The translations under genes and the position numbers were made by a program. 64,000 bases of DNA from Escherichia coli (GTDB taxonomy: Bacteria > Pseudomonadota > Gammaproteobacteria > Enterobacterales > Enterobacteriaceae): the NCBI RefSeq assembly GCF_003790525.1, contig NZ_CP033635.1; one strand, given 5' to 3'. How positions within the stretch are numbered: the stretch's first letter is position 1; each line of letters starts with the position of its first letter. Under the pieces are notes generated by a model. It was not told the origin of the DNA and searched no databases. It saw only the letters and a list, made by a program, of their open reading frames with translations. Below, one piece after another: positions 2,402 through 32,612 of this stretch.

Positions 2402-2521
2402 TGCCTGGCGGCCGTAGCGCGGTGGTCCCACCTGACCCCATGCCGAACTCAGAAGTGAAACGCCGTAGCGCCGATGGTAGTGTGGGGTCTCCCCATGCGA
2501 GAGTAGGGAACTGCCAGGCAT
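2402..2521 (+). rRNA. rrfG: 5S ribosomal RNA
   Basis: 120-nt sequence TGCCTGGCGGCCGTAGCGCGGTGGTCCCACCTGACCCCATGCCGAACTCAGAAGTGAAACGCCGTAGCGCCGATGGTAGTGTGGGGTCTCCCCATGCGAGAGTAGGGAACTGCCAGGCAT matches E. coli 5S rRNA; follows the 23S 3' end after a ~92-nt spacer. Confidence 0.97.
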
Positions 2522-2533
2522 CAAATTAAGCAG

Positions 2534-2561
2534 AAGGCCATCCGTCAGGATGGCCTTTTTG
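2534..2561 (+). terminator. rrn operon rho-independent terminator
   Basis: AGGCCATCC-GTCA-GGATGGCCT hairpin followed by TTTTTG, immediately after the 5S rRNA. Confidence 0.85.
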
Positions 2562-2580
2562 CATTGGTGCAGAAAAAAAT

Positions 2581-2612
2581 GCCTGATGCGATGCTGCGCG
2601 TCTTATACTCCC
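2581..2612. repeat. degenerate REP-like sequence
   Basis: GCCTGATGCGATGCTGCGCGTCTTATAC resembles the 5' two-thirds of the REP consensus (GCCTGATGCGACGCT...CGCGTCTTATCAGGCC) but lacks the 3' arm. Confidence 0.3.
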
Positions 2613-2843
2613 ACATATGCCAGATTCAGCAACGGATACGGTTTCCCCAACTTGCCTACTTCCATACGTGTCCTCCTTACCAGAAATTTATCCTTAAGCT
2701 CCTCAATAACCATTTTCCTGCTAACTAAATTCATGGTTAAGGTTGCATAATGATACGCAACAAATGTATAACATTTTTTTACCAAAAAAAATAAACAACA
2801 GCGACTGACAAAAGCATCGGATTACGGCAGGAGACATAATGGC

Positions 2844-4142
2844 ATGGCTGAAAGTACTGTAACGGCAGACAGCAAACTGACAAGTAGTGATACTCGTCGC
2901 CGCATTTGGGCGATTGTGGGGGCCTCTTCAGGTAATCTGGTCGAGTGGTTCGATTTCTATGTCTACTCGTTCTGTTCACTCTACTTTGCCCACATCTTCT
3001 TCCCTTCCGGGAACACGACGACTCAACTACTACAAACAGCAGGTGTTTTTGCTGCGGGATTTCTGATGCGCCCAATAGGCGGTTGGCTATTTGGCCGCAT
3101 AGCCGATAAACATGGTCGCAAAAAATCGATGCTATTATCGGTGTGTATGATGTGTTTCGGCTCACTGGTTATCGCCTGTTTGCCAGGCTACGAAACAATC
3201 GGTACCTGGGCTCCGGCATTATTGCTTCTTGCTCGTTTATTCCAGGGATTATCCGTTGGCGGAGAATATGGCACCAGCGCCACCTATATGAGTGAAGTTG
3301 CCGTTGAAGGGCGCAAAGGTTTTTACGCATCATTTCAGTATGTGACGTTGATCGGCGGGCAACTGCTAGCTCTACTGGTTGTCGTGGTTTTACAACACAC
3401 CATGGAAGACGCTGCACTCAGAGAGTGGGGATGGCGTATTCCTTTCGCGTTAGGAGCTGTGTTAGCTGTTGTGGCGTTGTGGTTACGTCGTCAGTTAGAT
3501 GAAACTTCACAACAAGAAACGCGCGCTTTAAAAGAAGCTGGATCTCTGAAAGGATTATGGCGCAATCGCCGTGCATTCATCATGGTTCTCGGTTTTACCG
3601 CTGCGGGCTCCCTTTGTTTCTATACCTTCACCACTTATATGCAGAAGTATCTGGTAAATACTGCGGGAATGCATGCCAACGTGGCGAGTGGCATTATGAC
3701 TGCCGCATTGTTTGTATTCATGCTTATTCAACCACTCATTGGCGCGCTGTCGGATAAGATTGGTCGCCGTACCTCAATGTTATGTTTCGGTTCGCTGGCA
3801 GCCATTTTTACCGTTCCTATTCTCTCAGCATTGCAGAACGTTTCCTCGCCTTATGCCGCTTTTGGTCTGGTGATGTGCGCCCTGCTGATAGTGAGTTTTT
3901 ATACTTCAATCAGTGGAATACTGAAGGCTGAGATGTTCCCGGCACAGGTTCGCGCATTAGGCGTTGGTCTGTCATATGCGGTCGCCAATGCTATATTTGG
4001 TGGGTCGGCGGAGTACGTAGCGTTGTCGCTGAAATCAATAGGAATGGAAACAGCCTTCTTCTGGTATGTGACCTTGATGGCCGTGGTGGCGTTTCTGGTT
4101 TCACTAACATTGCACCGTAAAGGAAAAGGGATGCGGCTTTAG
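2844..4142 (+). CDS. kgtP: alpha-ketoglutarate:H+ symporter (MFS)
   Basis: 432-aa [46 protein letters not shown]...; multi-pass membrane protein of the sugar-transporter MFS type; length and N-terminus match KgtP. Confidence 0.95.
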
Positions 4143-27811: not shown

Positions 27812-27900
27812 TTATAAAGTAAAACCCCCGAACTGGTAAGGAACGGGGGTTTTACTTTACAACTTTAATTTTGTGCAGCACACGATTCCAACGGAAATGA
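27812..27900 (-). ncRNA. ohsC: OhsC antitoxin sRNA (approximate boundaries)
   Basis: Minus-strand segment between the bidirectional terminator and a candidate -10 (RC of 27899-27904 = CATAAT). Contains the antisense of GTGCAGCACACGATTCCAA (27873-27891), an 18/19 match to the shoB 5' UTR copy at 28122-28140. Ends are not determined. Confidence 0.5.
27818..27856. terminator. bidirectional rho-independent terminator (acpS on + strand, ohsC on - strand)
   Basis: AGTAAAACCCCCG-aactggtaaggaa-CGGGGGTTTTACT palindrome; both strands give a G/C stem followed by UUUUACUUUA. Confidence 0.8.
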
Positions 27901-28215: not shown

Positions 28216-28296
28216 ATGACTGATTGCCGATACCTGATTAAACGGGTTATCAAAATCATCATTGCTGTTTTACAGCTGCTCCTTTTGTTCTTATAA
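28216..28296 (+). CDS. shoB: ShoB small toxic membrane peptide (type I toxin), 26 aa
   Basis: ATG at 28216 preceded by AAGGA; encodes MTDCRYLIKRVIKIIIAVLQLLLLFL, a hydrophobic 26-mer; missed by the ORF track because of size. Confidence 0.85.
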   Translation: MTDCRYLIKRVIKIIIAVLQLLLLFL

Positions 28297-28352: not shown

Positions 28353-28489
28353 ACTATAAATAAGTGTCTGGGCAGATACTATATAAATTTACTTAGTGAA
28401 TGATTATGCTAATTTCATCATTTAAATAAATATAATAGCGTTAAGGTTTCTCTATAAAATAATTAACACTCTACTTCCAGAGCAGAATA

Positions 28490-28786
<297 letters not shown>

Positions 28787-28805
28787 TTATACGCGCATTC
28801 TTTAC

Positions 28806-29654
28806 TCAGACCAGTTTTTTCACCAGCGCTTCACTATGACGAATACGTTCTGGTGCCAGTTCCAGATCCTGCTGAATCAGCGCAATGAACAGCAAATCCG
28901 TTAACATTCCCTGCGCGTGACAAGCAGAGATTGAAGCACTGTTTGTCGCTTGTTCTTCGGCAATGGTATACAGGCAATGAGAAGCACGCTGTTGCAGGGC
29001 ATTGGGAGTAAAGCCGGTAATCGCCAGCACTTTTCCGCCCACTCGCAGCATCTCATCTGCCGCCAGGTTTAACTCGCGTCGTACACCGGTGTAGGAAATG
29101 GCTAATAACAGATCGTCAGGGGACGACGCCTGTACTGTAGCGAGTAGCGCATGCATATCGCGCACTGCGGCAGCATTGAAGCCAATCTTCATCAGCTTCC
29201 AGGCAAAGTTTTGCGCCACCAGACCCGAAGCGCCAATACCGGTCAGAATTATCCGCCGCGCAGAGCGCAACATTGTTACGCATTCATGCAGTTTCTCTTC
29301 ACTATTAACGTTTAGCGTTGCGTACATGGCGGCAGTATTTTCTTTAATCAGTTTTTCGCCGACCAGCCGTAACGGATCATCACCGCGGATTTGGTTATGA
29401 ATGGGCACGGAGGGAGATTCCGGCTGGCTTGCCAGCGCTTCACTCAACGCCAACTTAAGTGCCGGAAAACCTTTATAGCCGAGTTTTTGCGCGAACTTCA
29501 CGACGCTGGACTGACTGACTCCGGCTTCGTTGGCCAGTTGCTGAGAGCTTAAATGGCGCGCCGTATCAGGTTGTAGCAGCAGATAATCCGCCAGTTTTTT
29601 ATCACTCTGGGCAAGCCCCTGGTAACGCTGACGGATACGAAGTAAGCCGTTCAT
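28806..29654 (-). CDS. yfhH: RpiR/SIS-family transcriptional regulator (uncharacterised)
   Basis: 282 aa from MNGLLRIRQRYQGLAQSDKKLADYLL...; N-terminal RpiR-type HTH (SSQQLANEAGVSQSSVVKFAQKLGYKGF) and C-terminal SIS domain; ORF-track start is 24 codons upstream. Confidence 0.85.
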   Translation of the reverse strand: MNGLLRIRQRYQGLAQSDKKLADYLLLQPDTARHLSSQQLANEAGVSQSSVVKFAQKLGYKGFPALKLALSEALASQPESPSVPIHNQIRGDDPLRLVGEKLIKENTAAMYATLNVNSEEKLHECVTMLRSARRIILTGIGASGLVAQNFAWKLMKIGFNAAAVRDMHALLATVQASSPDDLLLAISYTGVRRELNLAADEMLRVGGKVLAITGFTPNALQQRASHCLYTIAEEQATNSASISACHAQGMLTDLLFIALIQQDLELAPERIRHSEALVKKLV

Positions 29655-29862
29655 ATCTTTCCTCGCGATGAAATAGTGGCGACAACAGGCAATATGAGAC
29701 AAACGCGAGTGAATTTTATATTCCATTGCCGCTAATTGCCATGAATTAAAAATTCCAGTTAGCCATGATGCGGTCGATTGTTGCCGGAAAAGTGATGATC
29801 TATCTGTTAGGCTATGTAGTAGCGAAAATTAATCAGGATGTTTCAGTCCAGAGGAGTATGGT

Positions 29863-30498
29863 TTGGCAACTCACGAGCGTCGTGTGGTGTTTTTTGACTT
29901 AGATGGAACATTGCATCAGCAGGATATGTTCGGCAGTTTTTTGCGTTATTTACTGCGTCGCCAACCGCTGAATGCGTTGCTTGTCCTGCCGTTGTTGCCG
30001 ATCATAGCCATTGCGTTATTGATAAAAGGCCGTGCGGCACGCTGGCCGATGAGTCTGCTTCTGTGGGGATGCACTTTTGGTCACAATGAAGCGCGTTTGC
30101 AGGCGTTGCAGGCCGATTTCGTACGCTGGTTTCGTGACAATGTTACCGCCTTTCCGCTGGTTCAGGAGCGATTAACCACCTACCTGTTAAGTTCCGATGC
30201 TGATATCTGGTTGATTACCGGCTCTCCGCAGCCGCTGGTTGAAGCGGTTTATTTCGATACGCCCTGGTTGCCGCGGGTTAATCTTATCGCCAGTCAGATT
30301 CAGCGTGGCTATGGTGGTTGGGTATTGACGATGCGTTGCCTCGGGCATGAGAAGGTCGCGCAACTGGAGCGCAAAATCGGCACGCCGCTGCGGCTGTACA
30401 GTGGCTATAGCGACAGTAATCAGGACAACCCGCTGCTTTATTTCTGTCAGCATCGTTGGCGAGTAACCCCGCGCGGTGAACTCCAGCAACTGGAATAG
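29863..30498 (+). CDS. pgpC: phosphatidylglycerophosphatase C (HAD-like)
   Basis: 211-aa ORF with HAD motif I (VVFFDLDGTLHQQD) and TM segment. Confidence 0.88.
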   Translation: MATHERRVVFFDLDGTLHQQDMFGSFLRYLLRRQPLNALLVLPLLPIIAIALLIKGRAARWPMSLLLWGCTFGHNEARLQALQADFVRWFRDNVTAFPLVQERLTTYLLSSDADIWLITGSPQPLVEAVYFDTPWLPRVNLIASQIQRGYGGWVLTMRCLGHEKVAQLERKIGTPLRLYSGYSDSNQDNPLLYFCQHRWRVTPRGELQQLE

Positions 30499-30510
30499 AG
30501 TAAAGCATAG

Positions 30511-32612
<2,102 letters not shown>

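What the first reader, a model, noticed from the sequence alone, without database searches (positions are those of the whole stretch)
28806..29862. Uncharacterised RpiR/SIS regulator yfhH divergent from pgpC
An RpiR-type HTH plus SIS (sugar-phosphate-binding) regulator is divergently arranged with the phosphatidylglycerophosphatase gene pgpC, sharing a ~208-bp control region, and lies directly upstream of the ferredoxin-like yfhL on the same strand. No sugar-phosphate metabolic gene is adjacent, so its ligand and targets are not evident from context.
Basis: inference. Interest (0 to 1): 0.2.

Follow-up and report, generated by a model that had tools for sequence, protein, structure and literature searches.

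The report
Orphaned MurR-like regulator beside deleted murQP
The uncharacterised E. coli regulator YfhH is a close cousin of the cell-wall-sugar repressor MurR whose own target genes (a MurNAc etherase and transporter) were deleted in the Escherichia ancestor, leaving the regulator, its two binding sites and a gene scar next to pgpC.

Summary
yfhH (28806-29654, minus strand; 282 aa; HTH_6 + SIS) lies 208 bp from divergent pgpC and 55 bp upstream of yfhL, and I found no functional study of it.

The claim that context gives no clue fails once relatives are compared. In 40 of 80 Enterobacteriaceae species, the yfhH orthologue is divergent from a murQ (MurNAc-6-P etherase) and murP-like PTS operon lying between yfhH and pgpC. 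Other lineages show partial or complete loss.

The E. coli spacer is a deletion scar:
- 29655-29756 matches the yfhH-murQ control region.
- 29758-29862 matches the last ~125 nt of murP.

Two GGAAT-N5-ATTC boxes (29711-29724 and 29743-29756, 32 bp apart) are conserved in 66 of 79 species. They stand out as conserved islands within Escherichia.

Five of the eight MurR residues that hydrogen-bond MurNAc-6-P are identical in YfhH, and three are conservatively replaced. yfhH dN/dS in Escherichia is about 0.02, so the gene is not decaying.

Best reading: a MurNAc-6-P-responsive, autoregulated repressor that has lost its operon. Its adjacency to pgpC is secondary. pgpC appears to have its own conserved promoter-like block inside the murP remnant.

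All function is inferred from sequence; nothing was tested experimentally. Interest is moderate.

The parts
28806..29654 (-). yfhH CDS, 282 aa, MurR/RpiR-family regulator
   Evidence: ORF; Pfam HTH_6 + SIS; NCBIfam PRK11557 equivalog at 572 bits against a cutoff of 355; RefSeq annotation.
29424..29654 (-). HTH_6 DNA-binding domain (residues 1-77). The helix segment SQSSVVKFAQKLG differs from E. coli MurR (SQSSIVKFAQKLG) at one position.
28881..29273 (-). SIS sugar-phosphate-binding domain (residues 128-258). It carries S143, K156, H168, S187 and Y188, identical to the MurR MurNAc-6-P contacts S146, K159, H171, S190 and Y191. A142, T189 and R192 replace G145, S192 and K195.
   Evidence: contact list from PMC9177960.
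29660..29664 (-). Shine-Dalgarno GAGGA, 5 nt before the yfhH ATG at 29654
   Evidence: Read from the sequence.
29711..29724 (-). Box 1, GGAATATAAAATTC: the predicted yfhH-proximal YfhH operator. It overlaps promoter-like -10 elements on both strands.
   Evidence: PWM score 27.1 bits.
29743..29756 (-). Box 2, GGAATTTTTAATTC: the predicted second operator, formerly murQ-proximal, 32 bp from box 1. It is invariant in six Escherichia species.
   Evidence: PWM score 25.6 bits.
29655..29756 (.). Segment homologous to the yfhH-murQ intergenic control region of Citrobacter (L008 3897-4000). It ends 14 nt short of where the murQ ATG would be.
   Evidence: Local alignment; multi-species alignment.
29758..29862 (+). 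Remnant of the 3' end of the deleted murP-like PTS EIIBC gene. It reads ..IVAGKVMIYLLGYVVA.. against MurP ..IVAGKVMFYLLGYLVA.., and has small internal deletions plus one of about 22 nt. The deletion junction is at about 29757/29758.
29776..29815 (+). Block kept by every murP-truncating deletion seen and nearly invariant in Escherichia. It is a candidate pgpC-tadA promoter: extended -10 TGtTAGGCT at 29805-29813, -35-like CGGAAA at 29785-29790, predicted transcription start near 29820.
   Evidence: Conservation. The promoter reading is my inference; the consensus scan did not call it. It is not a stable RNA fold (z = -0.01).
29863..30498 (+). pgpC (yfhB), phosphatidylglycerophosphatase C, TTG start, GGAG Shine-Dalgarno at 29853-29856
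28490..28750 (-). yfhL, a 2x[4Fe-4S] ferredoxin, 55 nt downstream of yfhH. A TATAAT sits in the gap (minus strand, 28791 to 28786).
   Evidence: sequence read; promoter activity upstream of yfhL reported in PMC2984482.

Best explanation
YfhH is a MurR-type repressor, paralogous to E. coli MurR/YfeT. Its ancestral job was to control a divergent murQ-murP operon (MurNAc-6-P etherase plus a MurNAc-type PTS transporter) that lay between yfhH and pgpC.

By analogy with tetrameric MurR, it would bind two GGAAT-N5-ATTC operators 32-33 bp apart that overlap the divergent core promoters. It would be released by MurNAc-6-P bound in the SIS pocket.

In the common ancestor of the sampled Escherichia species, a deletion of about 2.2 kb removed murQ and most of murP. 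It kept the regulator, both operators, and the last ~105 nt of murP, which appear to hold the promoter of the downstream pgpC-tadA genes.

In E. coli today YfhH most likely autoregulates yfhH. It may also gate whatever residual rightward transcription runs from the former murQ promoter into pgpC.

Shown from sequence: the family assignment, the deletion scar, the conserved boxes and the purifying selection. Inferred: DNA binding at the boxes, the ligand, tetramer formation, and the present-day targets.
For: 1. Context in relatives. Of 80 species-level orthologous loci, 40 have complete murQ + murP between yfhH and pgpC, and 3 truncated contigs have at least murQ. Six have murQ only, one has murQ plus murP fragments, one has only a murP scrap, and 26 have neither (ORFs). 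The etherase passes the MurQ equivalog TIGR00274 (415 bits against a cutoff of 302).

2. Deletion scar. Window 29655-29756 aligns to the Citrobacter yfhH-murQ spacer, and 29758-29862 aligns to the murP 3' end. The translated remnant matches MurP at 15 of 17 residues.

3. Operators. In 651 kb of orthologous loci, 140 of 144 GAAT-N5-ATTC matches fall within the 100 bp upstream of yfhH. Sixty-six of 79 loci have two boxes, spaced 32-33 bp apart in 64 of 65 measured (alignment). Within Escherichia the boxes are conserved islands while the sequence between them has diverged. They are the only two exact matches in the 64 kb window.

4. More distant relatives. Proteins at 41-42% identity (P0127, P0134) also sit beside MurQ equivalogs. 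In the murQ-linked regions of those contigs the GAAT-N5-ATTC core recurs once in L083, 119 bp upstream of murQ, and GGAAT-N5-ATTCC recurs twice in L085.

5. Ligand pocket. Of the 8 MurR residues that hydrogen-bond MurNAc-6-P (PMC9177960), 5 are identical in YfhH, including K159, which contacts the lactyl carboxylate. The other 3 are conservative changes (G to A, S to T, K to R). E. coli and Citrobacter YfhH are identical at all 8. The closest solved structure is the MurR SIS domain.

6. Parallel architecture at murR-murQ. The E. coli murR-murQ spacer has two one-mismatch boxes, GGAATCATTGAGTC and GGAATCATATATCC, also 32 bp apart.

7. Not a relic. yfhH dN/dS is 0.019 within Escherichia, against 0.027-0.040 in lineages that keep murQP. 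The gene is present in 5425 of 5426 complete genomes.
Against: - There are no experimental data on binding, ligand or regulon.
- Three of the eight direct-contact residues differ from MurR.
- The linked PTS is only 38% identical to E. coli MurP and scores below the MurP equivalog cutoff (331 against 516). The sugar could therefore be a MurNAc relative rather than MurNAc itself.
- In Escherichia, the consensus TATAAT that precedes box 1 in murQ-bearing species is lost, so the promoter has been remodelled.
- Very strong purifying selection on a regulator that supposedly only autoregulates is not well explained. It hints at an unidentified target.
- My MurR 'boxes' at murR-murQ were not checked against the published footprint, because that paper was not available.
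- The PWM built from YfhH boxes does not score the murR-murQ boxes above threshold.
Confidence: 0.7

Rival explanations
1. YfhH in E. coli has been retained because it now controls other genes. One possibility is cross-regulation of the MurR regulon (murQP-yfeW) or other peptidoglycan-recycling or amino-sugar genes, acting as a second MurNAc-6-P sensor.
For: - dN/dS is about 0.02 long after loss of the adjacent operon.
- The HTH segment SQSSxVKFAQKLG differs from MurR at one position.
- The murR-murQ spacer carries GGAAT-type boxes with the same 32 bp spacing.
Against: - A PWM scan found no site of 9 bits or more in the murR-murQ locus or the anmK locus. It found only weak sites (9.0-11.7 bits) in the nagZ/nagK and nagBACD/nagE loci, the best placed being 10.2 bits in the nagB-nagE spacer. 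True boxes score at least 13.9 bits, with a median of 24.8.
- Only about 163 kb of the genome could be scanned.
Confidence: 0.2
2. YfhH is a dedicated regulator of pgpC (phospholipid synthesis), sharing an evolved divergent control region. This is the reading suggested by adjacency, by the first reader and by PMC6055005.
For: - The two genes are divergent, 208 bp apart.
- A promoter-like site on the plus strand overlaps box 1 (ATGAGA-17-TATATT). Transcripts from it would enter pgpC.
Against: - The adjacency is secondary. In 40 of 80 species, 2.4 kb of murQ-murP separates the two genes.
- pgpC sits 3 nt after murP in those species, and a conserved promoter-like block inside the murP 3' end survives every murP-truncating deletion.
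- Pluralibacter and Trabulsiella have lost box 2 entirely.
Confidence: 0.15
3. The polarity is the reverse: the ancestral state was yfhH next to pgpC, and murQ-murP was inserted later in Citrobacter, Enterobacter and related genera.
For: Twenty-six of 80 species lack the genes, including Escherichia and Klebsiella.
Against: - E. coli retains recognisable murP 3' coding sequence in the spacer.
- Decay intermediates exist: murQ only, murQ plus murP fragments, and a murP scrap only.
- The regulator is itself MurQ-associated in relatives at 41-42% identity.
Confidence: 0.03
4. yfhH is a decaying, functionless relic in E. coli.
For: - Its cognate operon is gone.
- The consensus -10 upstream of box 1 is lost in Escherichia.
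Against: - dN/dS is 0.019 across Escherichia species with dS up to 0.85.
- The ORF is intact at 282 aa, and the region is present in 5425 of 5426 genomes.
- Both boxes are conserved.
Confidence: 0.02

Closest known systems
E. coli MurR (YfeT, b2427), MurNAc-6-P-responsive repressor of murQP-yfeW and of itself
   Same: - Same HTH_6 + SIS architecture.
- 35.7% identity over the full length.
- MurR is the best PDB match for the SIS domain (7EN5).
- Five of eight direct ligand contacts are identical and three are conservative.
- It is divergent from murQ-murP (in relatives, for YfhH).
- Two GGAAT-type boxes lie 32 bp apart in the spacer.
   Different: - YfhH is not the orthologue. It scores 171 bits against a cutoff of 408 on the MurR model and has its own equivalog model, PRK11557.
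- In E. coli it has no adjacent murQP.
- Its linked MurQ and PTS in relatives are only 54% and 38% identical to E. coli MurQ and MurP.
- The YfhH box has an A/T-rich N5 and a strict ATTC right half that the MurR boxes lack.
Other E. coli RpiR-family regulators: RpiR/AlsR (allose) and HexR (KDPG)
   Same: Same two-domain family.
   Different: All score far below their model cutoffs: AlsR 118 against 400, HexR 106 against 296. Their ligands and regulons are unrelated to MurQ.
MurR-like RpiR regulators of Gram-positive bacteria (B. subtilis YbbH/MurR; S. aureus MurR)
   Same: RpiR-family repressors next to murQ/murP (PMC9177960). The YbbH N-terminal domain is a PDB hit (2O3F).
   Different: The sequence relationship is distant, and the operators were not compared here.

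Membership tests
RpiR/MurR family of transcription regulators | N-terminal HTH_6 (rpiR-type) DNA-binding domain | tested here: met
   PF01418, residues 1-77, full profile length, E 2e-30.
RpiR/MurR family of transcription regulators | C-terminal SIS phosphosugar-binding domain | tested here: met
   PF01380, residues 128-258, full profile length, E 2e-32.
YfhH equivalog (NCBIfam NF008590 / PRK11557) | Score above the curated cutoff over the full length | tested here: met
   571.9 bits against a cutoff of 355, residues 1-282 of 282.
MurR proper (YfeT orthologue, NCBIfam NF012026) | Score above the curated equivalog cutoff | tested here: not met
   171 bits against a cutoff of 408; 35.7% identity to E. 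coli MurR. YfhH is a paralogue, not the orthologue.
MurR-like function (MurNAc-6-P-responsive murQ repressor) | Gene linked to and divergent from murQ (with or without murP) | tested here: inconclusive
   Not met in this window: there is no murQ in the 64 kb. Met for the orthologue in at least 50 of 80 species and for relatives at 41-42% identity. A murP remnant is present in the window.
MurR-like function (MurNAc-6-P-responsive murQ repressor) | Residues that contact MurNAc-6-P in the MurR crystal structure | tested here: inconclusive
   Five of eight direct contacts are identical (S146, K159, H171, S190, Y191). The other three are G145A, S192T and K195R. This is compatible with the ligand but is not proof.
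MurR-like function (MurNAc-6-P-responsive murQ repressor) | Two neighbouring repeat operators in the divergent spacer | tested here: met
   Two GGAAT-N5-ATTC boxes 32 bp apart, conserved in 66 of 79 loci. This is a sequence prediction only.
MurR-like function (MurNAc-6-P-responsive murQ repressor) | Tetramer; DNA binding relieved by MurNAc-6-P | not testable with these tools
   Needs purified protein for SEC/AUC, EMSA and ITC.
HexR / AlsR(RpiR) | Score above the curated cutoff of the respective model | tested here: not met
   HexR 106 against 296; AlsR 118 against 400.

The most novel reading that the evidence does not exclude
Escherichia has kept a second, operon-less MurNAc-6-P sensor under very strong purifying selection because it acquired a new output. 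One possibility is coupling peptidoglycan-recycling flux to transcription entering pgpC-tadA (phosphatidylglycerol synthesis and an essential tRNA deaminase). Another is acting with or against MurR at the murQP-yfeW operators. Either way it would be a rewired regulator created by a deletion that fused an old sugar-operon promoter to envelope or housekeeping genes.
Probability: 0.2. Interest if true: 0.55.

Novelty: new member of a known kind. Interest (0 to 1): 0.38.

Why it matters
YfhH is one of the few E. coli K-12 transcription factors that still has no function assigned. It is the only uncharacterised member of the four-member RpiR family (PMC4797297).

This analysis turns 'no clue from context' into a specific, cheap test:
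- a defined pair of operators;
- a candidate inducer, MurNAc-6-P;
- a natural positive control, the intact yfhH-murQ-murP loci of Citrobacter and Enterobacter.

It also shows that the yfhH-pgpC 'divergent pair' is a deletion artefact. This corrects a published adjacency-based guess at a lipid link.

It documents repeated loss of a second MurNAc utilisation/recycling operon across Enterobacteriaceae. The three sampled species that carry a YfeT-type murRQP (E. coli, Citrobacter sp. Awk 4, C. sedlakii) have all lost murP at this locus. This is relevant to how cell-wall recycling pathways, which are linked to AmpC induction in these genera, are organised and regulated.

Tried and rejected
- Literature. 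The search for 'yfhH' gave 18 papers, none with functional data: it appears as a marker gene, in lists, and in one adjacency guess. 'b2561' gave nothing relevant. Searches on ChIP-exo and uncharacterised TFs and on murQ + RpiR + Salmonella gave nothing useful. The original MurR operator paper (Jaeger & Mayer 2008) could not be retrieved.
- RNA element in the spacer. Rfam finds only ohsC, elsewhere. The murP remnant does not fold better than shuffles (z = -0.01). Rejected.
- Consensus sigma-70 scan. It gave only weak 9-of-12 matches, no more than expected by chance (4 found against 2.5 expected). It did not call the conserved block, so my extended -10 reading is by eye. I also tried to fit sigma-E and sigma-32 consensus sequences to that block, because holoenzyme SELEX peaks map to the spacer (PMC5493296). 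The fit was not convincing.
- Regulon search. PWM scans covered the 64 kb window and the K-12 murR, anmK, nagZ/nagK and nagBACD/nagE regions. Nothing came near the two boxes. The best others were 13.8 bits at 28482 (yfhL 3' end), 11.7 bits in the nagZ/nagK region, and 10.2 bits in the nagB-nagE spacer. A whole-genome scan was not possible with the caps.
- One-mismatch GGAAT-N5-ATTCC hits at 3428, 11535 and 23763 are at chance level.
- The P0128 relative sat on a short contig and was uninformative.
- The 1.57 kb inserts in L065 and L071 are an unrelated MFS transporter. The 3 kb inserts between yfhH and yfhL in the K. oxytoca group are unrelated genes.
- The upstream ATG giving a 306-aa ORF was rejected.

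Full report
**1. What is in the window**

The window is E. coli. Positions 28400-30600 are 100% identical to strain SMS-3-5, and the region is found in 5425 of 5426 complete E. coli genomes. RefSeq annotates the neighbourhood as rnc-era-recO-pdxJ-acpS, shoB, yfhL, yfhH, yfhb (pgpC), tadA, mltF and purL.

yfhH occupies 28806-29654 on the minus strand and encodes 282 aa. It has a full-length HTH_6 domain (residues 1-77) and a full-length SIS domain (residues 128-258). It matches its own NCBIfam equivalog, PRK11557, at 572 bits against a cutoff of 355.

pgpC starts with TTG at 29863, so the spacer is 29655-29862, exactly 208 bp. yfhL begins 55 nt after the yfhH stop on the same strand.

The longer 306-aa ORF that starts at 29726 is not the gene. 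The Pfam profile starts at residue 1 of the 282-aa form, a GAGGA sits 5 nt upstream of that ATG, and the orthologues are 282 aa.

**2. What is already known**

Full-text searches found YfhH only in lists of uncharacterised transcription factors. It is the one unstudied member of the four E. coli RpiR-family proteins, the others being HexR, MurR and RpiR (PMC4797297; PMC9308461).

It also appears as a non-essential marker gene. One paper guesses at a link to PgpC purely from adjacency (PMC6055005). I found no ligand, operator or regulon in print.

**3. The decisive evidence comes from relatives**

A scan of one genome per species returned 80 orthologous loci at 75-99% identity, all Enterobacteriaceae. 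Mapping the neighbours showed that the distance from yfhH to pgpC is about 210-270 bp in some genera but about 2.39 kb in most.

The extra DNA encodes two genes that are divergent from yfhH and co-directional with pgpC. The first is a 297-aa MurNAc-6-P etherase, which passes the MurQ equivalog TIGR00274 at 415 bits against a cutoff of 302. The second is a 454-aa PTS EIIBC whose best model is MurP, though below its cutoff (331 against 516).

The tally across the 80 loci is:

| State of the yfhH-pgpC interval | Loci |
|---|---|
| Complete murQ + murP | 40 |
| Truncated contig with at least murQ | 3 |
| murQ only | 6 |
| murQ plus murP fragments (S. enterica subsp. arizonae) | 1 |
| murP scrap only (Citrobacter sp. 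Awk 4) | 1 |
| Neither gene (Escherichia, Klebsiella, Raoultella, Pluralibacter, Trabulsiella, Yokenella, Pseudocitrobacter) | 26 |
| Unrelated MFS gene in their place | 2 |
| Locus too truncated to score | 1 |

**4. The E. coli spacer is a deletion scar**

Window 29655-29756 aligns to the Citrobacter yfhH-murQ intergenic region and stops 14 nt before the murQ start codon. Window 29758-29862 aligns to the last ~125 nt of murP.

Translated, the remnant reads LAMMRSIVAGKVMIYLLGYVVAKINQ... against MurP ...TIVAGKVMFYLLGYLVAVIAGF.... So about 2.2 kb, comprising murQ and most of murP, was deleted.

All six Escherichia species sampled share the same junction, so the event predates their divergence. 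This rules out the reverse polarity, in which murQP would have been inserted elsewhere.

**5. Predicted operators**

The spacer contains two 14-nt boxes on the minus strand, 32 bp apart: GGAATATAAAATTC (29711-29724) and GGAATTTTTAATTC (29743-29756). They are the only exact GGAAT-N5-ATTC matches in the 64 kb window.

Across the orthologous loci, 140 of 144 GAAT-N5-ATTC matches in 651 kb fall in the 100 bp upstream of yfhH. Sixty-six of 79 loci have both boxes, and the spacing is 32-33 bp in 64 of 65 measured.

Within Escherichia, where yfhH dS reaches 0.85, the boxes stay constant while the 13-17 nt between and beside them have diverged. Klebsiella and Raoultella have also lost murQP but keep both boxes. 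Pluralibacter and Trabulsiella keep only box 1.

The boxes overlap promoter-like elements on both strands. In murQ-bearing species, a TATAAT directly precedes box 1 in the yfhH direction.

**6. Wider support**

At 50% clustering the YfhH family is narrow. The next full-length relatives are about 40-42% identical.

Two of the three I could place also sit next to MurQ equivalogs. P0127 is followed by murQ and a true MurP (630 bits against a cutoff of 516). P0134 is divergent from an operon of murA-like, nagK-like and murQ genes. In the murQ-linked regions of those contigs the GAAT-N5-ATTC core recurs once in L083, 119 bp upstream of murQ, and GGAAT-N5-ATTCC recurs twice in L085.

The E. coli murR-murQ spacer holds GGAATCATTGAGTC and GGAATCATATATCC, also 32 bp apart. 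That matches the published statement that MurR binds two neighbouring repeats there and represses both murQP and itself (PMC9177960). I could not check this against the original footprint.

**7. Ligand**

The best solved relative is the MurR SIS domain (7EN5-7EN7). Zhang et al. list eight MurR residues that hydrogen-bond MurNAc-6-P.

In YfhH, S146, K159, H171, S190 and Y191 are identical. K159 is the residue that contacts the lactyl carboxylate. G145, S192 and K195 become A, T and R. E. coli and Citrobacter YfhH are the same at all eight positions.

MurNAc-6-P is therefore the most likely inducer. This remains an inference. The linked PTS is only 38% identical to MurP, so a related sugar is possible.

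**8. yfhH is not decaying**

Pairwise dN/dS for yfhH is 0.019 within Escherichia. It is 0.029 in Klebsiella/Raoultella, which have also lost the operon, and 0.027-0.040 in Enterobacter and Citrobacter, which keep it.

An operon-less regulator held this tightly is the one feature my main explanation does not fully account for.

**9. pgpC**

In murQP-bearing species pgpC starts 3 nt after murP. Every deletion that truncated murP (Escherichia, C. sedlakii, Citrobacter sp. NCU1 and sp. Awk 4, Lelliottia/Huaxiibacter, Superficieibacter, and the Kosakonia group) stops just upstream of the same block, CCGGAAAAGTGATGaTCTATCTGTTAGGCTAT. Klebsiella and Pluralibacter retain only its CTGTTA(G/A)GCTA core.

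In the window this block is 29784-29815, and it is nearly invariant in Escherichia. It is not a stable RNA structure.

I read it as an extended -10 promoter (TGtTAGGCT) for pgpC-tadA. tadA is essential (PMC10768439), which would explain why no deletion removed the block. Holoenzyme SELEX peaks for sigma-32 and sigma-E map to this spacer (PMC5493296). The promoter assignment is inference only.

It follows that the yfhH-pgpC pairing is secondary and that pgpC does not depend on the YfhH boxes for expression. Read-through from the former murQ promoter remains possible.

**10. Possible reason for the loss**

YfeT-type MurR orthologues (72% identity or more) turned up only in E. coli, Citrobacter sp. 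Awk 4, C. sedlakii, some Salmonella, K. aerogenes and Serratia ficaria. The three of these that are in my locus set have all lost murP at the yfhH locus.

This fits redundancy after gain of a second system. With n = 3 it is only suggestive.

**11. Search for other E. coli targets**

I built a PWM from 63 distinct boxes and scanned the window and the K-12 murR, anmK, nagZ/nagK and nagBACD/nagE regions. The two boxes score 27.1 and 25.6 bits, and nothing else exceeds 13.8 bits. A whole-genome scan was beyond the caps.

**12. Verdict**

It is wrong that context is uninformative, and wrong that the spacer is a shared yfhH/pgpC control region.

YfhH is best described as a MurR-paralogous, probably MurNAc-6-P-responsive, autoregulated repressor that lost its murQ-murP operon in the Escherichia ancestor. 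It is a new, not yet characterised member of a known kind. Interest is moderate. The main value is a concrete, testable function for a long-standing y-gene, together with the open question of why it is so strongly conserved.

Noticed in passing
window 28216-28296 (+) and 27816-27892 (-): The type I toxin-antitoxin pair shoB (26-aa hydrophobic peptide MTDCRYLIKRVIKIIIAVLQLLLLFL) and its antisense sRNA ohsC lie in the acpS-yfhL gap. ohsC scores 101.7 bits in Rfam, and shoB is annotated in RefSeq.
   Followed up: partly
window 29776-29815: A block inside the murP remnant is kept by every murP-truncating deletion across genera and is nearly invariant in Escherichia. It is conserved at synonymous sites even where murP is intact. 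It looks like an extended -10 promoter (TGtTAGGCT) for pgpC-tadA embedded in the 3' end of the former murP.
   Followed up: partly
window 28719-28735 (inside the first codons of yfhL): TTGATGCATTTTTTAG resembles an NsrR half-site (AAGATGCATTT, recalled from memory). A Salmonella paper cites an NsrR site 'at yfhH' in E. coli (PMC7527575). A link between NsrR and the ferredoxin gene yfhL would make sense but was not examined.
   Followed up: no
window 28786-28791 (minus strand TATAAT) in the 55-nt yfhH-yfhL gap: A perfect -10 hexamer sits about 35 nt upstream of the yfhL start, and no terminator is predicted after yfhH. yfhL may therefore have its own promoter and also receive read-through from yfhH.
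   Followed up: no
window 29726 (alternative ATG, 306-aa ORF): An in-frame upstream ATG extends the yfhH ORF by 24 codons and overlaps box 1. It is not supported as the real start.
   Followed up: yes
window 31056-31059: tadA (plus strand, ends 31059) and mltF (minus strand, ends 31056) are convergent and overlap by 4 nt at their stop codons. mltF, a lytic transglycosylase that generates anhydro-muropeptides, lies only 1.2 kb from a MurR-like regulator. No YfhH box was found near it.
   Followed up: partly
L022 (CACSKA010000009.1, labelled Chryseobacterium sp. 18061): This contig carries a typical Enterobacteriaceae acpS-yfhL-yfhH-pgpC-tadA-mltF locus, nearly identical to L021 (Citrobacter sp. 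18056). The taxonomic label looks wrong, or the assembly is contaminated.
   Followed up: no
L056, L058, L075, L080 (4846-8100); L065, L071 (about 2430-4000): The locus is a hotspot for rearrangement. The Klebsiella oxytoca group has a 3 kb insert between yfhH and yfhL (ketopantoate-reductase-like, MFS and LysR genes). The Kosakonia quasisacchari group has an MFS transporter where murQP used to be.
   Followed up: partly
L068 (Citrobacter amalonaticus AUH_CA_2023_1) 1615-2977: murP matches in two pieces that join at residue 176, which suggests a frameshift. This could be an early pseudogene or a sequencing error. yfhH in the same locus also matches only to residue 256.
   Followed up: no
window 28482-28500 (3' end of yfhL): This is the third-best PWM hit for the YfhH box (13.8 bits, at the bottom of the range of true boxes). 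It is AT-rich and probably due to chance.
   Followed up: no
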